From a virus (Duplodnaviria > Heunggongvirae > Uroviricota > Caudoviricetes), in the IMG/VR virus record IMGVR_UViG_2974588491_000001, positions 250,380 to 314,379 of that record: 64,000 nucleotides of DNA; one strand, given 5' to 3'. This document shows, one piece after another, positions 12,482 to 58,396 of this stretch; position 1 is the stretch's first letter, and the number at the start of each line of letters is the position of its first letter. The translations under genes and the position numbers were made by a program. The notes beneath the pieces are model-generated. The model was not told the DNA's origin. It did no database searches and worked only from the letters and a program-made list of their open reading frames with translations.

Positions 12482-12853
12482 ATGAATACGTTTGAAATTT
12501 GTCGTGGAATCCGCAGGGTTATACTTAATAGTACTGCTGAAGTAATGAACTATCCTTCTTGGGGTTCTGAATTTGCATATAAACAAATTACCCAGCTTGC
12601 AGAAAGAATTAAAGATAATAGTACATTTAAATTTATTGACCCATCCGATTTAACTTTATCTGAAATGCAAGAATTAGGATTTGGGAAATGGGAAGAAGGA
12701 TCAAAGTTGATGCTTATTCCGCTATGGCTAATGCAGTTTATTGATCCTGAACTTGAAGTAACTTGTATTTCTGGTGAAGTGTACAAATTTAAAGATGCTG
12801 ACAATGATAATCGTTATGGTTGTCTTGCTTATGGCATTTTTCCCAAAGAATAA
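12482..12853 (+). CDS. hypothetical protein
   Basis: ORF track. Confidence 0.7.
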   Translation: MNTFEICRGIRRVILNSTAEVMNYPSWGSEFAYKQITQLAERIKDNSTFKFIDPSDLTLSEMQELGFGKWEEGSKLMLIPLWLMQFIDPELEVTCISGEVYKFKDADNDNRYGCLAYGIFPKE

Positions 12854-12870
12854 AAATTGAGAATTTAAAA

Positions 12871-13920
12871 ATGAAAGAATCAGGTTTGTTTTTTGGTAAA
12901 TTCGCCCCGTTACATACGGGGCATATTTCTGCAATTTTAAATGCAGCAACACAAGTAGAAGAACTTTATGTTGTACTGTGTTGGGATGAAAAGTTTCAAA
13001 GTACTTTAACCCCTGAATTGCAGAAGGTAATGACTTTACGTAATCGTCTTATGTGGTTGAAAGATACCTTCAAGCATATGAAAAAGATTAAAATTACATA
13101 TGTGAATGAAACACCAATTCCTGCTTATCCGGTAGGTTGTGATGATTTCACAAAGCTGGTTCGTAATAAACTTATTACCGAATTCCACCAGCCTTATGTA
13201 GATATGGTATTCAGTTCTGAAACTGATTATAACGATTACTTTAGTCAGTACTGGCCTGATTCTGAACATGTACTAATTGACCCACCACGTGAATTCGTGA
13301 ACATTAGTGCTACTCGTATTCGCAACAATCCATATCAACATTGGGATCTGTTAGCTCCAGCTTCACATAAACATTTTGTGAAGAAAGTTTGTATTATCGG
13401 AGTTGAAAGCACTGGTAAAAGTACTTTAACTATAAATCTGGCAAACCACTTCAGTACTCAGTACGTTGAAGAAGTTGGGCGTACTATTTGCGAAAATGAA
13501 TACCATTGGTCTGAAGCAATGATGAACATTGAAGATTATGTTTACGTTGCGATGGAACATAAAGTAAAAGAACACAAAATGGCTGCTACAGCTAATAAAG
13601 TACTTTTTAGTGATACAAATAACTTGATCACTTTATTCAGTGCTGAATGTAGCGGTCATACAAGTAGTCCTCTCCTAAGTCAAATGGCGTTCGCAGAGGA
13701 TTATGACCTTGTAATAATGCTTGACATTGATGTACCGTGGGTGTATGATCCACTCAGGTTGAACAACACCGCTGAACTGCGGGAAAAAACGTTCAATCAT
13801 TTAAAGTTTCTTTGTAAAGCACACGGCGTTGAATATACCACAGTAAGTGGTGACTTTAATACCCGTTTTAAAACGGCGGTTGAACTCGTACAAAATCTAT
13901 TACAAGGTAATAACAAATGA
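12871..13920 (+). CDS. nadR: NadR-like NMN adenylyltransferase / ribosylnicotinamide kinase
   Basis: FGKFAPLHTGH, ISATRIR, P-loop GVESTGKST, DVPWVYDPLR. Confidence 0.92.
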   Translation: MKESGLFFGKFAPLHTGHISAILNAATQVEELYVVLCWDEKFQSTLTPELQKVMTLRNRLMWLKDTFKHMKKIKITYVNETPIPAYPVGCDDFTKLVRNKLITEFHQPYVDMVFSSETDYNDYFSQYWPDSEHVLIDPPREFVNISATRIRNNPYQHWDLLAPASHKHFVKKVCIIGVESTGKSTLTINLANHFSTQYVEEVGRTICENEYHWSEAMMNIEDYVYVAMEHKVKEHKMAATANKVLFSDTNNLITLFSAECSGHTSSPLLSQMAFAEDYDLVIMLDIDVPWVYDPLRLNNTAELREKTFNHLKFLCKAHGVEYTTVSGDFNTRFKTAVELVQNLLQGNNK

Positions 13921-14720
13921 ACGCACTCGTCACAAGTTTAAATTTGTCACCAACATTACTGTTGGGATACATTCTGTTTTTAACTACGGTTTGTGGAATT
14001 TACATTTACCGTATTGCTGGAACTGATTTGAAACTTTCCCAAGTATTCAGTACTTGTGTAACAGACTTCAAAGGTTGGACAGTTAAAGAATATCTTTGGC
14101 TGTTTACTGCACCAGCAATCATTTGTGCCGTATCACTTATTATGGGTGGCGGTTGGGTAGAATTCGTCTGCTCAGTTACAAGTATTATCGGTGCTATTCT
14201 TGTAGCTAAGGGTAAAATCAGTTCTTATGTTTGGGGATTTGTCGGTACTGCTTTGTATCTGTACATTTCTTACAAATATAAATTATACGGTGAAACGATC
14301 ACATACGCATTGCTTTTCTTACCGATGCAAGTATCAGGTTACTATTACTGGATTGTAAACAGTAAAGAAAAAGATACTGACGTAATTAAGAAAGTGATGA
14401 CAACTAAACAACGTATCTGGTTGTTTGCCGGTACTGGTATTGCAATCGCTGCATATGCTGCATTCCTTCGTTATCTGGAAGGTGCAACGCCAGGTTTAGA
14501 TTCAGCAACATCTATTCTGAGTATTGTAGCAACAACTCTGATGGTAAAACGTTATGCTGAACAATGGTTGATCTGGATTCTGGTTAACACCGTTGCAATC
14601 GTAATGTGGGTACTGGCAGTACTTCATCATCAAGATCAAGGTTTCGCAGTACTGACTATGTGGATCACCTTCTGGTTGAACTCCGTATACGGTTGGTATC
14701 AATGGCGTAAAGGTAATTAA
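13917..14720 (+). CDS. pnuC: nicotinamide riboside transporter PnuC
   Basis: multi-TM, LDSATSILSI, EQWLIWILVN, YGWYQW; coupled to nadR. Confidence 0.92.
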   Translation: MNALVTSLNLSPTLLLGYILFLTTVCGIYIYRIAGTDLKLSQVFSTCVTDFKGWTVKEYLWLFTAPAIICAVSLIMGGGWVEFVCSVTSIIGAILVAKGKISSYVWGFVGTALYLYISYKYKLYGETITYALLFLPMQVSGYYYWIVNSKEKDTDVIKKVMTTKQRIWLFAGTGIAIAAYAAFLRYLEGATPGLDSATSILSIVATTLMVKRYAEQWLIWILVNTVAIVMWVLAVLHHQDQGFAVLTMWITFWLNSVYGWYQWRKGN

Positions 14721-26168: not shown

Positions 26169-26292
26169 CGGGAATTGGTGTAATGGCAGCACAACGTTAT
26201 AACATAGATTCTTGTATATAGGAATTTCACAGCAACCAATACAATTGCATAGGGAGCCGTGAGATGAGGTTCGATTCCTTGATTCCCGACTA
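26169..26292 (+). tRNA. intron-containing tRNA-Pro(AGG)
   Basis: C1-G72, A73; removing 26197-26246 gives ACGGC-ATAGGGA-GCCGT. Confidence 0.7.
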
Positions 26293-39615: not shown

Positions 39616-39690
39616 GCCTTTGTAGCTCAGCGGTAGAGCGGGGATCTCTAAAATCCTTTGTCGTGGGTTCGAATCCCTCCATCGGCACAA
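39616..39690 (+). tRNA. tRNA-Sup(CTA), putative amber suppressor
   Basis: GGGAT-CTCTAAA-ATCCT; canonical D and T loops; two acceptor mismatches; ends CAA. Confidence 0.75.
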
Positions 39691-39992: not shown

Positions 39993-40104
39993 GCATAAAT
40001 GACGGAATTGGTAAACGTAGAGTCTGACAATAGCGAAAGCGACGATAGGACTTCGGGAGTAGCCGTGAGGTTCCCTTGTAGGTTCGAATCCTGCTTTATG
40101 CACC
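39993..40104 (+). ncRNA. class II tRNA-like RNA with 24-nt expanded anticodon loop
   Basis: acceptor GCATAAA/TTTATGC, Leu-type D arm, T-loop TTCGAAT, oversized anticodon and variable arms. Confidence 0.6.
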
Positions 40105-44710: not shown

Positions 44711-45110
44711 ACTGATTGAAACTTGGATGCACAATGTTAAAGTGTATCCACCTGCGGAAATCTTTTTTGAAAAGTACGGGAAAGAAGCAAAAGCTGAAGA
44801 ACGTATTAAGCAACTTTGTGAAGATGTTTATCGTTTCTGCTTCCCTGAAGGTACTAAAAACCCGTTGGGTGATCTTGGTCAATCGTATCGTGAATTTGAA
44901 GTTGCATATCTTATGGGCTTCGACGGCATGAAACCAGAGTACATCACAAAAGTTAAAGATGCGTTCCTTGCTGATGTGAAGTACGCAATAACTGAACTGG
45001 AAAAAATGTTCAAAAAGGATCAAATCCTTCAGCAGTACTATGCACCGTGGAAAGTCAAATTCGCGGATATTAACTCAGCCGTTTATGATATGACTAAGGA
45101 TTATGTATGA
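44703..45110 (+). CDS. hypothetical protein
   Basis: ORF track frame. Confidence 0.65.
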   Translation: MNELIETWMHNVKVYPPAEIFFEKYGKEAKAEERIKQLCEDVYRFCFPEGTKNPLGDLGQSYREFEVAYLMGFDGMKPEYITKVKDAFLADVKYAITELEKMFKKDQILQQYYAPWKVKFADINSAVYDMTKDYV

Positions 45111-45334
45111 AAATCTTAGCCATTGAACGTTATGGTGATTTTGATATGCCATATCTGGTATTATTCAAAGGTTCAGAAGAATCCCCTGAACCATCGGTAG
45201 TACTTGCTGAACTTGAAGCAATCAATGAACCAACTTGGTTGGAACAAGAGAAACTTCATAATCAAATGGTTCGTATTTTGACTAGTCATGGCTATACAAA
45301 ATTTGAACCACCAATGGTCACTATTAGTGATTAA
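45107..45334 (+). CDS. hypothetical protein
   Basis: ORF track. Confidence 0.6.
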   Translation: MKILAIERYGDFDMPYLVLFKGSEESPEPSVVLAELEAINEPTWLEQEKLHNQMVRILTSHGYTKFEPPMVTISD

Positions 45335-45343
45335 TATTTAAAA

Positions 45344-45461
45344 GCAGTGATCGTCTAGCGGCCCAGGACACGAAAAGCGATTCTTGATTAAGAATCTTAC
45401 GGCATCTATAACTTTCATTTCACGAACGTAACGTAGGTTCGAATCCTACTCACTGCTCAAA
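45344..45461 (+). tRNA. intron-containing tRNA-Glu(TTC)
   Basis: Glu-type D arm GTCTAGCGGCCCAGGAC; ~42-nt insert 45373-45414; TTTTCAC loop; perfect acceptor and T arms. Confidence 0.7.
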
Positions 45462-45480
45462 TTATAAAAGGCTTTTTAAA

Positions 45481-45774
45481 ATGAAAAGTATTTTATTCTT
45501 TCAATATGCAGCAACTGGTGAAGGTTGGCGTACAGAAATCCGTTTCTGTAATCAGTCAAGACTCAGTGATGAACAAGCGATAGAACAGTTTAAGCAGAAA
45601 CATCACGAGTACTTTCATTGTGGTATAGAAATGCATGACATTGATGAAGCGAAGGAAGACAAACGTTTTCTGCAACATTTGCAAGAACACGTACCTGCTT
45701 TACATCGTTATGTTGTGGGAAATCGTGGTTGTTTAATTGATATTGACTACGTTCATTACGTGAATTTCTCATAA
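45481..45774 (+). CDS. hypothetical protein
   Basis: ORF track. Confidence 0.65.
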   Translation: MKSILFFQYAATGEGWRTEIRFCNQSRLSDEQAIEQFKQKHHEYFHCGIEMHDIDEAKEDKRFLQHLQEHVPALHRYVVGNRGCLIDIDYVHYVNFS

Positions 45775-45849
45775 AAATCCTTGACTTGCGTCGGTTGACC
45801 TGATAGAATGTATTTACTGATTTGAAATATAAAAGTTAACGAGGCTATC

Positions 45850-46131
45850 ATGAGCAACGGTACTGGTATTGCAATGCGTATTCAGATATTACCTAGTGGT
45901 CTTATCATCGGTCATGTGGTTCCTGAAGAACATCCGGCAAATGGTCATATTACAATGAAAACTGATCACGTATATGAGTTGCAGTTTGAACTTGCATACG
46001 GACGTGAACAATTGCGTGATATTGGCGAAGCCGATGTGAAAATGTTTGATATTCAACCTGGTGGTTGTGGTCTGGATAAATTCATTGCTCTGGCTGGTGG
46101 TAAACATCTTACTGTGAAGAACGGAAAGTAA
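45850..46131 (+). CDS. hypothetical protein
   Basis: GAGG RBS. Confidence 0.65.
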   Translation: MSNGTGIAMRIQILPSGLIIGHVVPEEHPANGHITMKTDHVYELQFELAYGREQLRDIGEADVKMFDIQPGGCGLDKFIALAGGKHLTVKNGK

Positions 46132-46133
46132 CC

Positions 46134-46331
46134 ATGAAAGTACAATGGATCAAAATTAAAAATCCAGACGATATGCAATTCTTCGCTGGAAAGATTTATC
46201 CAAAAGATGATGCTGACTATCAGTACATCGAAGATGAATTTGGTACTCAGTACTCAGTAAGTCCTGATGGACTTAAAGAACTTCAGAATTTCGGATGGGA
46301 AATTGAGGTACAATATGAAAGTATACATTGA
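46134..46331 (+). CDS. hypothetical protein
   Basis: ORF track. Confidence 0.6.
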   Translation: MKVQWIKIKNPDDMQFFAGKIYPKDDADYQYIEDEFGTQYSVSPDGLKELQNFGWEIEVQYESIH

Positions 46332-46680
46332 TGATATTCGTGATCCTCAAAAGTACTTGACTGCTGAACAAGCTGAAGGTATTGTATGGCTCAAAGAATG
46401 GTGGGAAGCAAAACGTTTTTTGATTGAACATTCTTCTGAAATTGAAGTAATTCATTTTGACCATTATATGGATGAACCAACTTTAACTGGTACTGATCTG
46501 TTTATGATGGTTGCGGGTGATTGCATGTGGGGTGATAAAGAAAATTGGCCTAATGTGAAAACCATTTATCTTCATTCTTCGGATGAAGACAGTATTGAAG
46601 AATTGATGGAAAACTATGCAGAACCTATGCATAAGGCTGGTGTAGAAGTTATCAATAATAGTCAGAGGAATAATTACTGA
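46315..46680 (+). CDS. receiver-fold protein (cyclic-phosphate-processing type), paralog 1
   Basis: MKVYIDDIRDP...IHFDHYM...TGTDL...IYLHSS. Confidence 0.65.
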   Translation: MKVYIDDIRDPQKYLTAEQAEGIVWLKEWWEAKRFLIEHSSEIEVIHFDHYMDEPTLTGTDLFMMVAGDCMWGDKENWPNVKTIYLHSSDEDSIEELMENYAEPMHKAGVEVINNSQRNNY

Positions 46681-47036
46681 TGAAAGTATATGTTGATGAT
46701 ATTCGTAATCCAGAAAACCATCTCAGTGCTGAACAGGCAGAAGGAATCCACTGGAAAAAAGAATGGTGGGAAGCAAAGAACTTTATCTTCGATAACTGCG
46801 AAGAAATTGAAACTATCCATCTGGACAATTTCTTAGGTGATCGTACTCATACTGGTGCTGATATACTTCGTATGGTAACTCGTAGTTTAAAACGCGGTAC
46901 GTTCCCTAAACTGAAACAAATTTATCTTCACAGTTCTGACAAAGAAGTTGTGAATAACTTATATAACTCTCAGATTGAGTGTTGTAAAGAAGCAGGTGTT
47001 GAGTTAATTAAAAACTCACGTCCTAATCGTACTTAA
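46680..47036 (+). CDS. receiver-fold protein (cyclic-phosphate-processing type), paralog 2
   Basis: MKVYVDDIRNP...IHLDNFLG..TGADI...IYLHSS. Confidence 0.65.
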   Translation: MKVYVDDIRNPENHLSAEQAEGIHWKKEWWEAKNFIFDNCEEIETIHLDNFLGDRTHTGADILRMVTRSLKRGTFPKLKQIYLHSSDKEVVNNLYNSQIECCKEAGVELIKNSRPNRT

Positions 47037-47044
47037 TAAAATAT

Positions 47045-47169
47045 GGCGAGTTAGCTCAGTGGTAGAGCACGTATGAAACCCAGGATTCCTGTACTTGAAT
47101 CCCGCAGCAACTATACTCTCAAGCCTTTTAAGCTCGTGGTCATTGGTTCGAATCCAATACTCGCCACCA
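47045..47169 (+). tRNA. intron-containing tRNA-Lys(TTT)
   Basis: removing 47072-47121 gives perfect CGAGC-CTTTTAA-GCTCG; all other arms canonical; CCA. Confidence 0.8.
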
Positions 47170-47186
47170 AACATTGAGGAAAAGAT

Positions 47187-47420
47187 ATGTCTATCTTTGC
47201 TGAAATTAAACAAAGTTTTTTAGATGCAGTACGTACTGATGTGACTTTTGCTGATCCAGCAATTGCACGTGAGCAATCATCTAAGTCAGTAAACCCTACT
47301 ACTTATGATCGCTATCAGAAGTATCATTTTGACGCTGGTGAAATGTCTAAACTGGACAAAGTACTTGGCAATTTTATTAACCCTGTAATCGATAATATTA
47401 AAAAGGTTATCATTAAATGA
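47187..47420 (+). CDS. hypothetical protein
   Basis: GAGG RBS. Confidence 0.65.
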   Translation: MSIFAEIKQSFLDAVRTDVTFADPAIAREQSSKSVNPTTYDRYQKYHFDAGEMSKLDKVLGNFINPVIDNIKKVIIK

Positions 47421-55574: not shown

Positions 55575-55834
55575 GGAATTTAACAGCACAAAACATTTTG
55601 TCGCAGGTTCGAATCCTGCCAGAAATATTTAATTTGTAGATTACTTTATTATCATTTTCTAGATATTGATAATATTGAACATGTAACACCGTGGAGGTAA
55701 CAGCTTTAGCGGGTTGTGAGATAAACGCAGGGGTTACAATATATGTTGCAACGACCGATATGGCTAATCATAACAAATTAACTTAGTTCTGTAGCTTAGC
55801 TGGTAGAGCAAATGATAACGAATAAATTCCAGTA
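55575..55834 (+). ncRNA. circularly permuted tRNA with ~165-nt spacer, bracketed by CAGCAA element
   Basis: CATTT-TGTC-GCAGGTTCGAATCCTGC-CAGAAAT ... AGTTCTG-TAGCTTAGCTGGTAGAGC-AAATG; bracket GGAATTT/AAATTCC. Confidence 0.72.
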
Positions 55835-55866
55835 TTAATTAAACTAAAAAAAAAAGGTGCAATACA

Positions 55867-56301
55867 GTGGAACACGCTTTTAAAATTAACATCGGAGATT
55901 ATTCTGATGATGGTCATGGTAAAAACGAAGTTATTATTGTTAAAAGTACTAAATCAGTACAAGATGTACTTAATGCGTTCATCAGTGCTGGTACTAAATT
56001 GAATGTAGTTCAACATGGTAGATTTGTAATTGCTGAAGAATATGAAGATTCAAAGCTAAGTAATGAACATGCTGACTTCCTTCGTAATGCAGGTATCGAA
56101 TTCGAAGATCTAGTTTATAACGATGGTGACGAAGAAGAACCTGAATACATGATTAACGGCACTAATGAAATCATCCATTTAGTAATGCGTATTGCACAAA
56201 CAGAATTAGACTTCGATTATCAAATTGCGAATGATACAATTCCATCATTCAATGGTTTTAGTGGAGCGGGTCCACAAATCGGATACGGTCTATTCTGGTA
56301 A
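55867..56301 (+). CDS. hypothetical protein
   Basis: GDYSDDGHGK motif; GTG start. Confidence 0.7.
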   Translation: MEHAFKINIGDYSDDGHGKNEVIIVKSTKSVQDVLNAFISAGTKLNVVQHGRFVIAEEYEDSKLSNEHADFLRNAGIEFEDLVYNDGDEEEPEYMINGTNEIIHLVMRIAQTELDFDYQIANDTIPSFNGFSGAGPQIGYGLFW

Positions 56302-56309
56302 TAAAATTT

Positions 56310-56375
56310 GGAATCTAGCAGCAACCATAAAATGAAATCAACTGTTAATTGAAAACCTCAAAAAATGGATTCCAG
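56310..56375 (+). ncRNA. minimal CAGCAA element enclosing Asn-like anticodon stem-loop
   Basis: GGAATCT-AGCAGCAA ... TCAA-CTGTTAA-TTGA ... GGATTCC-AG. Confidence 0.62.
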
Positions 56376-56381
56376 CCTTTT

Positions 56382-56693
56382 ATGAATATAAAAGAAATTG
56401 TAGAACAAATTGAAAGTACTATGAAAACTTCAGGTGATAATTACATGAAGGAGTTAATACTAACAAATAGGAAGAAATTACGTAACACATTCTGTGATGA
56501 ATGTAATTCTTACTCCGTGTTCATGATAGTACATGATGAATTATGGAACATCATAAGTGACGGTAACTTAGATATTTTCTTATGTCCTAAATGTATGGAA
56601 AATCGATTAGGTAGAAAAATAGAAATTGCTGATTTAAAAATTTGTAATGTAAATTACCCTTACTTTTTAGCATTACAAATGATTGAAAAATAA
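56382..56693 (+). CDS. hypothetical protein with zinc-binding motifs
   Basis: CDECN...W...LCPKCMENRLGR. Confidence 0.6.
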   Translation: MNIKEIVEQIESTMKTSGDNYMKELILTNRKKLRNTFCDECNSYSVFMIVHDELWNIISDGNLDIFLCPKCMENRLGRKIEIADLKICNVNYPYFLALQMIEK

Positions 56694-56723
56694 ATGAAAC
56701 GCCACAAGAAATTGTGGTATAAT
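56694..56723 (+). promoter_or_regulatory. WTGAAAC-class promoter
   Basis: ATGAAACG...TGTGGTATAAT, 18-nt spacer. Confidence 0.72.
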
Positions 56724-56743
56724 ATAAGTAAGAAAAACAACTT

Positions 56744-56818
56744 GACTGTATAGCTCAGAGGCAGAGCGGCTCCCTGTTAAGGAGAAGGTCGGGATTTCGA
56801 AATTCCCTACGGTCGCAA
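56744..56818 (+). tRNA. tRNA-Asn(GTT)
   Basis: loop CTGTTAA, G73, ends CAA. Confidence 0.88.
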
Positions 56819-56942
56819 AGAATCAAATTCACCAGGCGTACTATGGTGCAATACGGATAGCATGTTATTCTATAAGATTGGAATAGAATACGTATTAGAA
56901 CCTTGTAAAGTTCTTCTGTAAACTCAATTTGATACCTTCTTT

Positions 56943-57009
56943 AGAATCTAACAGCAAACACATTTAAACATATATTTTTGGGATATAAAACGTTAAAAAC
57001 GGATTCTAG
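56943..57009 (+). ncRNA. minimal CAGCAA element
   Basis: AGAATCT-AACAGCAA ... TATAT-TTTTGGG-ATATA ... GGATTCT-AG. Confidence 0.6.
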
Positions 57010-57038
57010 TCTTATTAAAAGCAATCGAGAATATTTAC

Positions 57039-57269
57039 ATGAAAACGATCAAAATGTATTTGCTACAACGTCCAGGCCGCGATGATGATTATATCTCAGT
57101 ACTAGATGATAAAATCAACGTTCAGTCAAGTCTATTAAAACATATGTGGAATGACCCAAGTAAGATCAATTTCAAAATTCTGACATTCCCTTATACATTA
57201 GAAACCTATTATGGTGATTCTAATGTTCTGGAAGATGCAGTACTATTATGGGAACATAATATAGATTAA
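57039..57269 (+). CDS. hypothetical protein
   Basis: ORF track. Confidence 0.6.
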   Translation: MKTIKMYLLQRPGRDDDYISVLDDKINVQSSLLKHMWNDPSKINFKILTFPYTLETYYGDSNVLEDAVLLWEHNID

Positions 57270-57275
57270 AAATTT

Positions 57276-57331
57276 AGAATCTAACAGCAATTAAAACTCA
57301 TTTGGATAATATGAAAACCGATAGATTCTAG
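57276..57331 (+). ncRNA. minimal CAGCAA element
   Basis: AGAATCT-AACAGCAA ... TCAT-TTGGATAAT-ATGA ... AGATTCT-AG. Confidence 0.6.
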
Positions 57332-57336
57332 TCTTT

Positions 57337-57412
57337 AGGCGTATAGTGTAATTGGTTAGCACACCAGGTTTTGATCCTGGTAATCGAGGTTCAAGTCCTT
57401 GTATGCCTGCAA
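57337..57412 (+). tRNA. tRNA-Gln(TTG)
   Basis: CCAGG-TTTTGAT-CCTGG, G73, ends CAA. Confidence 0.9.
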
Positions 57413-57430
57413 AATAAAATAAGGCAAATT

Positions 57431-57679
57431 ATGTTCGAACAAGAATACAGCAATTCAACTCCAGTACAAGATATGCTTGCATATTTTGTAACCGGTACAG
57501 TACGAATTAGCGATTATATGGTTGAAGAACCAAGAAGATATAATAAGTCACACATTGTTTATGCTCTTGATGAAAATGACGCAGAACGTAAGTTCATAGA
57601 ACATTATGAAAAGAAAACTTCAGAGTATGAACGTTACTACAGTGTAAGTAATGTAGAAGTTTCAGAAACCTTAATTTAA
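57431..57679 (+). CDS. hypothetical protein
   Basis: ORF track frame, AAGG RBS. Confidence 0.65.
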   Translation: MFEQEYSNSTPVQDMLAYFVTGTVRISDYMVEEPRRYNKSHIVYALDENDAERKFIEHYEKKTSEYERYYSVSNVEVSETLI

Positions 57680-57815
57680 AAAATTTCATTTCCTTGTGAA
57701 ACAAGCTCGCATGATTCCCCTAGCTTGTAAAATTGTATGATGGGAACCGCGTTGCACCTGTACAGGTCAGATTGTAAAGATCAAGTATGTACAGTACTGA
57801 GAGCGGCAGTACACT

Positions 57816-57890
57816 GCATCCATCGTATATCGGCTATTATAATTGGCTTCCACCCAATAGAACGGAGTTCGACCCTCCGTGGATGCTCGA
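57816..57890 (+). tRNA. tRNA-Gly(TCC)
   Basis: ATTGG-CTTCCAC-CCAAT, U73, Gly-type D arm; no encoded CCA. Confidence 0.88.
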
Positions 57891-58004
57891 AGATTAACAA
57901 ACAATAAGGTAAATTATATGCTATAGAATCCTAGTACTGGTCCTCCTGATAAGTTTAATTCAGAACAAACTACTAAATTAAACAATATCAAAAAGGAACA
58001 TATT

Positions 58005-58331
58005 ATGTTAAACAAAGAACAATACATTACTGTAAAAGCAACCTGGAAAAAAGTAAAAGAGCACACTGTACACGAACACATTATCTATAATGTACTTCGG
58101 GGTAAAGAGGCTGATGAAGGGTTTGTAGCTTTAACTGATTGGGGTCGTTTGAATGCAAGTGATAACAATCCGTGGTTCAACTATGATAACGCAGTACGCG
58201 AAATTCACTATCAGTTGAATGCTAAACGTTATAACTATGAAGGTACAGTAAAACATTATTCCGATGTTTTCGGCATTGATTTAACACCTGAACTAATTGC
58301 AGAAGTACTACAAGCAATTAAGTTCAAGTAA
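58005..58331 (+). CDS. hypothetical protein (possible amber-readthrough N-terminal extension from 57918)
   Basis: ORF track; upstream in-frame ATG CTA TAG AAT CCT... Confidence 0.7.
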   Translation: MLNKEQYITVKATWKKVKEHTVHEHIIYNVLRGKEADEGFVALTDWGRLNASDNNPWFNYDNAVREIHYQLNAKRYNYEGTVKHYSDVFGIDLTPELIAEVLQAIKFK

Positions 58332-58339
58332 CAGAATTT

Positions 58340-58396
58340 AGAATCTAACAGCAATTAAACTCATTTGGATAATATGAAAAACAATAGATTCTAGTA
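58340..58396 (+). ncRNA. minimal CAGCAA element (near copy of 57276)
   Basis: AGAATCT-AACAGCAA ... CTCATTTGGATAATATGAAAA ... AGATTCT-AGTA. Confidence 0.6.

What the first reader, a model, noticed from the sequence alone, without database searches (positions are those of the whole stretch)
47045..47169. Cleanest case: tRNA-Lys(TTT) with a 50-nt intron at position 28/29
Seen: removing 47072-47121 yields a fully canonical 75-nt tRNA with encoded CCA (CGAGC-CTTTTAA-GCTCG). The insert has the same length as the Pro insert and carries GGATTC/GAATCC plus CGCAGCAA. Established: tRNA-Lys(UUU) is the target of anticodon nucleases such as PrrC, and known bacterial tRNA introns are group I introns in the anticodon loop. 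Inference: a stored, nuclease-resistant precursor released by splicing, alongside an intronless copy at 63443.
Basis: partly seen in the sequence, partly recalled or inferred. Interest (0 to 1): 0.85.

Follow-up and report, generated by a model that had tools for sequence, protein, structure and literature searches.

The report
Lysine tRNA carrying a Ro-type handle
A giant phage's lysine tRNA gene is interrupted by a conserved 50-base hairpin module that is probably not a classical intron but the docking handle of a Ro60-like RNA-binding protein, making the product a hybrid of a tRNA and a Y RNA; whether the handle is ever cut out is untested.

Summary
Bases 47045-47169 are a tRNA-Lys(UUU) body split after G28 by a 50-nt insert (47072-47121). 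Removing the insert gives a canonical 75-nt tRNA with an encoded CCA.

The interrupted gene is conserved in at least 9 related jumbo phages and in a Vibrio phage, with compensatory changes in the tRNA stems. The insert belongs to a family: A-rich strand, covarying 5-10 bp helix, CAGCAA(C), AUA(A)C. Each of these genomes has 4-6 copies in tRNA genes (Lys, Pro, Glu, Tyr, Ile). The same helix and motif also bracket YrlA-like permuted tRNA mimics nearby.

It is not a group I intron and not a bulge-helix-bulge intron. The genome has no EndA and no RtcB.

Following leads from earlier notes of this scan on other DNA, I tested three things:
- The phage encodes a Ro60-fold protein (DUF2828 + vWA) in an RNA-repair cluster.
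- All 5 other phages I tested that carry interrupted tRNAs encode it too.
- In 7 of 8 unrelated loci, the same helix-CAGCAA module lies just upstream of a DUF2828 gene.

Best reading (about 0.5): a tRNA-shaped Y-like RNA that keeps the handle. Splicing (about 0.3) is not excluded. The PrrC storage idea is untested and is not specific to Lys.

The parts
47045..47071 (+). 5' part of tRNA-Lys(UUU): acceptor 5' strand, D arm, A26, C27, G28
   Evidence: stems covary among orthologs
47072..47082 (+). A-rich 5' strand of the module (UAUGAAACCCA)
   Evidence: consensus UA.GAAAC across 23 inserts
47083..47102 (+). module hairpin: GGAUUC, loop CUGUACUU, GAAUCC
   Evidence: helix covaries: score 0.363 against 0.165 in shuffles, 0 of 500 shuffles as high; it becomes AAAUUAC/GUAAUUU in the Lys2 genes
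47103..47121 (+). 3' strand of the module: CG-CAGCAAC-UAUAC-UCUCA
   Evidence: CAGCAA(C) plus AUA(A)C conserved; same motif beside DUF2828 genes elsewhere
47122..47169 (+). 3' part of the tRNA: A29-C31, anticodon loop CUUUUAA, 3' strand GCUCG, variable loop, T arm, acceptor 3' strand, A73, CCA
46267..47036 (+). two tandem cRec (PF20274, cyclic-phosphate-processing receiver) genes ending 8 nt before the tRNA; probably co-transcribed with it
   Evidence: E 1e-9 and 1e-11; synteny in relatives; no promoter in between
26169..26290 (+). tRNA-Pro(AGG) with the same module (26197-26246)
   Evidence: 95-98% identical in the GAP32 and Eneladusvirus phages, 88-89% in Kaldavass and XbC2
45344..45458 (+). 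tRNA-Glu(UUC) with a 41-nt module (45373-45413)
52282..52401 (+). copy of the second module-bearing tRNA-Lys; body and module intact, anticodon loop expanded to 10 nt
63443..63516 (+). uninterrupted tRNA-Lys(UUU) paralog

Best explanation
The locus encodes a complete tRNA-Lys(UUU) body. It is probably cut out of an operon transcript like any tRNA. Its anticodon stem carries a 50-nt 'handle': an A-rich strand, a covarying helix, then CAGCAAC-AUAC. The handle is the RNA signature that accompanies Ro60-like (DUF2828 + vWA) proteins, one of which this phage encodes inside an RNA-repair gene cluster. Most likely the handle is kept, so the RNA is a hybrid of a tRNA and a Y RNA. The handle would dock the Ro60-like protein, while the tRNA part, with a genuine Lys anticodon loop, is presented to factors that recognise tRNA. 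The likely role is surveillance, repair or decoying of tRNA damage during infection. Shown here: the anatomy, its conservation, the helix covariation, the Ro60 fold, and the module-gene association. Inferred: binding, retention of the handle, and the role.
For: 1. The gene is selected. Orthologs in 9 phages keep the cloverleaf, with changes on both sides of 12 pairs. One such change spans the insert: CG..CG becomes GG..CC in pEa_SNUABM_50.
2. The insert is about as conserved as the exons: 98% against 89% in GAP32, and 76-78% against 76-89% in BF and the Yersinia phages.
3. Twenty-three inserts share one design with a covarying helix. A covariance model finds 4 strong copies in this genome and 4-6 in each of 6 relatives.
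4. The same helix plus CAGCAA brackets permuted tRNA mimics and short RNAs nearby. One of these gives a sub-threshold Rfam YrlA match of 31.4 bits, E 8e-4.
5. The 504-aa DUF2828 + vWA protein folds like Ro60. The model has pLDDT 87.8, and the top 13 PDB matches are all Ro60/TROVE proteins, with E-values from 1e-9 to 3e-5. It sits beside an Rnl2-family ligase and a 2H phosphoesterase.
6. All 5 other phages tested that have interrupted tRNAs, including Vibrio phage D479, encode DUF2828. None of 14 control genomes does.
7. In 7 of 8 unrelated DUF2828 loci, a helix-CAGCA[A/T] module lies within 900 nt upstream on the same strand. The reverse strand has none, and shuffles give a mean of 0.53 of 8 windows, maximum 3.
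8. Excision cannot be the general rule. In unit 55573-55832 and in one D479 gene the module caps the anticodon stem with no separate loop. Copy 52282 keeps its body, stem and module but has a 10-nt loop.
9. In an RNA library, a contig of a related phage joins 55835 back to 55571 at about 10 times the depth of its flanks. That fits an abundant RNA, possibly circular, that retains the module.
Against: Removing the insert restores a perfect 5-bp stem and a 7-nt loop in all but two or three of the 23 compiled cases: the degenerate 52282 copy has a 10-nt loop, Kaldavass and XbC2 Glu2 keep a G27-A43 mismatch, and one D479 gene has C at position 33. The anticodon loops are otherwise canonical and have shifted between standard anticodons (UUU, GAU, UUC). 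Apparent aminoacylation identity elements and an encoded CCA are kept. All of this is expected of decoding tRNAs, and a 50-nt arm on the anticodon stem should not fit the ribosome. Binding of the handle to the DUF2828 protein is inferred from gene neighbourhood only. The protein gene lies about 194 kb from this tRNA. Pfam's TROVE model does not match it, and the YrlA motif GNCGAAN0-1G is absent.
Confidence: 0.5

Rival explanations
1. It is a true intervening sequence. The module is cut out at 47071/47072 and 47121/47122 by an unidentified endonuclease or by the RNA itself. The ends are healed (cRec, Pnkp-like kinase) and the nick in the anticodon stem is sealed by the phage Rnl2-family or Rnl1 ligase. 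This yields a decoding tRNA-Lys(UUU). The Ro60-like protein could be the platform for the reaction.
For: Removal restores a canonical tRNA in nearly all of the 23 cases. Anticodon loops are canonical and evolving. The phage has a full heal-and-seal set: Rnl1 plus an AAA_33 kinase, an Rnl2-family ligase, a 2H phosphoesterase, and three cRec genes, two of them directly upstream of this tRNA. The junction lies in a duplex, which is the preferred substrate of Rnl2 (established knowledge of T4 Rnl2). A back-joined RNA contig suggests RNA ligation next to this helix.
Against: No junction read was found. There is no EndA and no RtcB, and Rfam finds no ribozyme or intron family. The distance from splice site to helix varies: 6-12 nt on the 5' side and 14-18 nt from CAGCA on the 3' side. 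No pairing is conserved at the sites. No ortholog lacking the insert turned up in 17 phage records. The module occurs where excision is impossible or pointless.
Confidence: 0.3
2. This is the first reader's version: the interrupted form is a store that resists anticodon nucleases such as PrrC and is released by splicing when needed.
For: Carriers of the module include Lys(UUU), Glu(UUC) and Tyr(GUA), which are known classes of anticodon-nuclease targets (established knowledge). Uninterrupted Lys and Glu copies coexist with them.
Against: It needs splicing, which is not shown. Pro(AGG) and Ile carriers do not fit PrrC. Nothing here bears on nuclease resistance.
Confidence: 0.1
3. The insert is a selfish or decayed insertion and the gene is a dead pseudogene.
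For: Several annotators call the orthologs tRNA-Pseudo, Undet or OTHER.
Against: Compensatory changes occur in all stems, and both body and insert are conserved across phage genera and in a Vibrio phage.
Confidence: 0.05

Closest known systems
YrlA-type bacterial and phage Y RNAs bound by Ro60/Rsr (Chen et al. 2014, PMC4201824; Rfam RF02553)
   Same: A tRNA-like domain is joined to a stem that docks a Ro60-fold protein. The setting is RNA repair genes. Neighbouring units in this window have the same permuted layout of T arm, closed acceptor stem and D arm.
   Different: The target has the normal tRNA topology, with an open acceptor stem, CCA and a true anticodon hairpin. The handle is inserted in the 5' strand of the anticodon stem. 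Its motif is CAGCAA, not GNCGAAN0-1G. The protein is DUF2828 rather than Pfam TROVE, and its gene lies about 194 kb away rather than within 4 kb.
Class I RNAs of dictyostelid amoebae (Kjellin et al. 2021, PMC7919456; Rfam RF01414)
   Same: A short covarying stem sits next to a conserved single-stranded motif. From my memory that motif is CCUUACAGCAA; here some units read UCUUACAGCAA.
   Different: They are eukaryotic, have no tRNA part and have a different known binding protein (Rnp1A). Rfam gives only chance-level matches on neighbouring units (E 4.4 and 9.9) and none on the target.
Archaeal tRNA introns at non-canonical positions, and permuted tRNA genes of Cyanidioschyzon
   Same: An insert lies inside the anticodon stem. 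Interrupted and permuted gene forms share one RNA signal.
   Different: There is no bulge-helix-bulge motif, and no EndA or RtcB is encoded.
Group I introns of bacterial and phage tRNA genes
   Same: They interrupt a bacterial-type tRNA gene.
   Different: This insert is 50 nt, not 200 nt or more. It lies in the stem, not the loop. The 5' exon ends in G, not U, and there is no terminal G. Rfam gives no match.
'Enigmatic' tRNA introns of Lak megaphages (Devoto et al. 2019, PMC6784885)
   Same: They are phage tRNA genes with short, highly conserved inserts of unknown mechanism.
   Different: No sequence comparison was made here, and the Lak inserts were placed by eukaryote-mode tRNAscan.

Membership tests
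Group I intron in tRNA | Structured core of about 200 nt or more that Rfam's Intron_gpI model recognises | tested here: not met
   The insert is 50 nt. cmscan finds only tRNA.
Group I intron in tRNA | 5' exon ends in U (G-U pair in P1) and the intron ends in G | tested here: not met
   The exon ends in G47071 and the insert ends in A47121.
Bulge-helix-bulge intron (archaeal or eukaryal) | Two 3-nt bulges around a 4-bp helix at the splice sites | tested here: not met
   By inspection of the sequence and its fold: no complement to GCAC or CACG near the 3' site, and the helix lies 11 nt from the 5' site.
Bulge-helix-bulge intron (archaeal or eukaryal) | A splicing endonuclease (EndA) and an RtcB-type ligase are available | tested here: not met
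   PF01974 and PF01139 are absent from the complete 378-kb genome, and the controls respond.
Y RNA / Ro60 particle | The genome encodes a Ro60-type protein (TROVE ring plus vWA) | tested here: met
   DUF2828 + DUF7788/vWA protein. The AlphaFold model's top 13 PDB matches are all Ro60/TROVE. Pfam TROVE itself gives no match.
Y RNA / Ro60 particle | The RNA carries the stem and motif that accompany the Ro60-type gene | tested here: met
   A helix-CAGCA module lies upstream of 7 of 8 unrelated DUF2828 genes, with none on the reverse strand and a shuffle mean of 0.53 of 8 windows. The target has the same module.
Y RNA / Ro60 particle | The RNA physically binds the protein | not testable with these tools
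   This needs a gel-shift or a pull-down experiment.
YrlA subfamily | GNCGAAN0-1G motif near the 5' end, and a permuted tRNA-like domain with a closed acceptor stem | tested here: not met
   The motif is absent from the target, and its acceptor stem is open with CCA. Only neighbouring unit 54221-54311 gives a sub-threshold YrlA match.
YrlA subfamily | Encoded within about 4 kb of the Ro60 gene on the same strand | tested here: not met
   The target is at genome position 297,424 and the DUF2828 gene at 102,737.
Canonical elongator tRNA | Cloverleaf with a 7-nt anticodon loop, U33 and conserved D/T loops | tested here: met
   Met only if the insert is ignored or removed.

The most novel reading that the evidence does not exclude
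The hairpin-CAGCAA module is the guide element of a phage RNA cutting-and-joining system built on a Ro60-like protein. Bound to the handle, the particle would recruit the phage ligases and end-healing enzymes to excise the handle from tRNA precursors and to circularise the permuted tRNA-like transcripts. That would be a protein-RNA splicing pathway for bacterial-type tRNAs unrelated to group I or bulge-helix-bulge splicing.
Probability: 0.2. Interest if true: 0.92.

Novelty: new variant of a known kind. Interest (0 to 1): 0.72.

Why it matters
Y RNAs that mimic tRNA are known, but their job is not. Here the mimic is a full lysine tRNA, with a genuine anticodon loop and CCA end, carrying the docking handle of a Ro60-like protein.

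The same design recurs on Pro, Glu, Tyr and Ile tRNAs in two unrelated phage lineages that also carry RNA ligases and end-healing enzymes. That gives a concrete, testable link between Ro60-type particles and tRNA damage control in the phage-host arms race. It also gives a first RNA partner and likely function for the large DUF2828 family, which had more than 6,000 matches.

If the handle turns out to be excised, it would be a new way of splicing tRNA in the bacterial world. On the practical side, genome annotators currently label these genes as pseudo or undetermined tRNAs.

Tried and rejected
- RNA evidence for splicing: I laid contigs of four RNA libraries on 45000-56500. Contigs cover the unspliced locus (46947-47381, 46506-47180, 46670-47156) and none skips 47072-47121. 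Contigs drop rare forms and mature tRNAs are poorly captured, so this says nothing either way. Most listed joints are cellular tRNAs cross-matching.
- Bulge-helix-bulge motif: looked for by eye, not found.
- Pairing between the two ends of the insert: G|UAU with AUAC fits the Lys and Pro inserts but fails in Glu, Ea50 and BF. No terminal pairing is general.
- IMG/VR pattern scan: 119 matches, nearly all chance. Only one further tRNA-embedded case (L124).
- Circular re-joining of bracket units tested with ARAGORN: two units can be read as permuted tRNAs, but the junction is not defined.
- Nuclease hunt: Pfam scans of about 39 ORFs of the window found no endoribonuclease.
- Pfam TROVE and a PDB sequence search: no match to the DUF2828 protein. 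Only the fold comparison did.
- Loose genome-wide census of bracket modules: too noisy to use.
- No module directly upstream of this phage's own DUF2828 gene.
- Literature searches: no paper on this insert class or on DUF2828 function in the held library.
- Kaldavass annotation: nearly all hypothetical proteins, no help.

Full report
**Observation.** The window lies at 250,380-314,379 of a complete 378,379-bp phage genome with terminal repeats. The phage is related to Cronobacter phage GAP32 and other Mimasvirus and Eneladusvirus jumbo phages.

At 47045-47169 the sequence reads as follows:
- GGCGAGU-UA-GCUC-AGUGGUA-GAGC-A-CG
- 50 nt, 47072-47121
- AGC-CUUUUAA-GCUCG-UGGUC-AUUGG-UUCGAAU-CCAAU-ACUCGCC-A-CCA

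Rfam's tRNA model spans the unit at 50.2 bits with a 63-nt insertion. Plain ARAGORN misses it. The boundaries are unique. The joined exons give a 75-nt tRNA-Lys(UUU). The Pro insert of 50 nt and the uninterrupted Lys gene at 63443 are also as stated.

**It is a selected gene, and one of a family.** The same interrupted gene sits at the same place in these phages:
- GAP32
- Serratia BF
- five Erwinia pEa_SNUABM phages
- Kaldavass
- Yersinia fHe-Yen9-03 and fHe-Yen9-04
- Xanthomonas XbC2

A similar gene is in Vibrio phage D479.

The cloverleaf is kept through changes on both sides of 12 pairs. One of these pairs spans the insert. The anticodon differs among orthologs: UUU, GAU and UUC.

In this window the same kind of insert interrupts Pro(AGG) at 26169, Glu(UUC) at 45344, and a second Lys-type gene at 52282. 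The orthologs of the 52282 gene in GAP32, Kaldavass and XbC2 are clean tRNA-Lys(UUU) genes. Their insert helix is AAAUUAC/GUAAUUU instead of GAUUC/GAAUC.

I compiled 23 inserts. The design, in order, is:
- the exon ends in G
- UA.GAAAC, 6-12 nt
- a helix of 5-10 bp
- 1-3 nt
- CAGCAA(C)
- N-AUA(A)C
- 4-5 nt, then the second exon

The helix covaries: score 0.363 against 0.165 +/- 0.026 in shuffles, 0 of 500 shuffles as high, and slid controls at most 0.137. A covariance model finds four strong matches in this genome, all on the + strand in the tRNA region. It finds 4-6 strong matches in each of six relatives.

The insert is about as conserved as the exons. The Pro unit is 95-98% identical in the GAP32 and Eneladusvirus phages and 88-89% in Kaldavass and XbC2.

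**Not a known intron.** It is too small and wrongly placed for a group I intron, and its end nucleotides are wrong. I see no bulge-helix-bulge motif. The genome has no EndA and no RtcB. Rfam finds no ribozyme or intron family.

The distances from the splice sites to the conserved parts vary. No pairing at the sites is general.

**RNA data.** Contigs from four RNA libraries cover the unspliced locus and show no junction. That is uninformative, so it is listed under Tried and rejected.

The libraries do show a 292-nt contig from a related phage. Its first and last 30 nt coincide, and it joins 55835 back to 55571, at depth 132.6 against 10-14 for neighbouring contigs. The stretch is a neighbouring unit bounded by the two strands of the same kind of helix: UUGGAAUUUA at 55573-82 and UAAAUUCCAG at 55823-32. 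So an abundant RNA, circular or tandem in template, retains the module.

**Repair genes.** The two ORFs that end 8 nt upstream of the tRNA are cRec domains (PF20274). Iyer et al. predicted these to process cyclic phosphates (PMC7824862). The genome also has:
- Rnl1 plus an AAA_33 kinase
- a third cRec gene
- a cluster of an Rnl2-family ligase, an ORF, DUF2828 + vWA, and a 2H 'Swiss army knife' phosphoesterase

**The turn.** The same helix and CAGCAA motif also bracket stand-alone units in 51188-58394, in the order helix strand, CAGCAA, cargo, A-rich run, partner strand. Several cargoes are permuted tRNA-like domains. One gives a sub-threshold YrlA match.

Earlier notes of this scan on other genomes proposed that such a hairpin-plus-ACAGCA module belongs to RNAs encoded beside Ro60-like genes. 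I tested that proposal here in three ways:
- The DUF2828 + vWA protein models with pLDDT 87.8. Its best 13 PDB matches are all Ro60/TROVE proteins, aligned over their full length.
- All five other phages tested that have interrupted tRNAs, including the unrelated Vibrio phage D479, encode DUF2828. None of 14 control genomes does. D479 carries four interrupted tRNAs, among them Glu(UUC) and Pro(AGG).
- In 7 of 8 unrelated contigs, a helix-CAGCA[A/T] module lies within 900 nt upstream of the DUF2828 gene on the same strand. The reverse strand has none, and shuffles give a mean of 0.53 of 8 windows, maximum 3.

**Reading.** The module is a protein handle with a life of its own, not a signal peculiar to tRNA splicing.

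Four observations favour its being kept in the mature RNA:
- In one nearby unit and one D479 gene it caps the anticodon stem with no loop left over.
- The 52282 copy keeps its body, a compensated stem and the module, but has a 10-nt loop.
- No ortholog lacking the insert turned up.
- A stable RNA retains the module.

Four observations favour excision:
- A canonical stem and loop are restored on removal in nearly every case.
- The anticodons are standard and have evolved.
- The apparent aminoacylation identity elements and CCA are kept.
- A 50-nt arm on the anticodon stem is unlikely to fit the ribosome.

I put the retained handle at about 0.5 and splicing at about 0.3. The two could combine if the Ro60-like particle is the platform for cutting and joining; I put that combined reading at about 0.2.

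**Proposed working.**
- Inferred: the tRNA is transcribed with the cRec genes, since no promoter lies between them. It is trimmed like a tRNA.
- Inferred from neighbourhood and co-occurrence: the handle docks the Ro60-like protein.
- Speculative: the exposed Lys(UUU) anticodon hairpin engages factors that read anticodons, such as synthetases, modification enzymes or host anticodon nucleases. The particle would then act as a bait, sensor or repair platform together with the phage ligases and end-healing enzymes.

**Novelty.** tRNA-like Y RNAs and phage Ro60 are known (PMC4201824; PDB 9L5Y). Three things are not in the literature I could search:
- a full tRNA with anticodon and CCA that carries the handle inside its anticodon stem
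- the CAGCAA handle
- its link to DUF2828

The scan had noted the module before on other DNA.

Noticed in passing
window 55571-55835: An RNA-library contig of a related phage joins 55835 back to 55571, with a 30-nt overlap between its two ends and about 10 times the flanking depth. This suggests an abundant RNA of about 262 nt, circular or tandem in template. The RNA holds a T arm, a D arm, about 170 nt of other sequence and the handle helix.
   Followed up: partly
window 46267-47036: Two tandem cRec (cyclic-phosphate-processing receiver) genes end 8 nt before the interrupted tRNA-Lys. The synteny is conserved in all relatives checked.
   Followed up: partly
genome C1:100,703-104,920 (L172): An RNA-repair cluster: Rnl2-family ligase with a PHA02142 OB domain, an unknown 202-aa ORF, a Ro60-fold DUF2828 + vWA protein, and a 2H 'Swiss army knife' phosphoesterase.
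   Followed up: yes
window 51188-58394: About a dozen stand-alone units are bracketed by the same helix with CAGCAA: 51188, 51377, 51856, 51998, 52403, 53932, 54188, 55573, 56308, 56941, 57274 and 58338. Some carry permuted tRNA-like cargo. Others carry only 38-48 nt and lie directly before or after tRNA genes.
   Followed up: partly
window 54221-54311: A sub-threshold Rfam YrlA (Y RNA-like) match of 31.4 bits, E 8e-4, lies inside one bracketed unit.
   Followed up: no
window 52282-52401: This copy of the second handle-bearing tRNA-Lys has a 10-nt loop (AUAUAUGAAA) on a compensated stem. Its orthologs in GAP32, Kaldavass and XbC2 have the normal CUUUUAA loop.
   Followed up: yes
window 39993-40104: A tRNA-like gene (Rfam 37.3 bits; ARAGORN reads Val GAC with a 19-nt insert) has an oversized anticodon loop and a long variable arm. 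Its insert is of a different kind from the handle.
   Followed up: no
window 39616-39688: A tRNA with anticodon CUA (amber suppressor type).
   Followed up: no
L171 (Vibrio phage D479, 222,497-223,931): Four interrupted tRNA genes of 116-124 nt carry the same module with other helix sequences: Lys-like, Glu(UUC), Pro(AGG) with the same AUAGGGA loop as here, and one in which the module caps the stem. The phage also encodes DUF2828.
   Followed up: partly
They also resemble the ...CCUGU/CCAGU ends of the bracketed units.
   Followed up: no
window 12820-14720 and 54536-55180: NAD-related genes lie among the tRNAs: a NadR-like NMN adenylyltransferase with AAA_28, a PnuC-type NMN transporter, and an ART-PolyVal ADP-ribosyltransferase set between two bracketed RNA units.
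   Followed up: no
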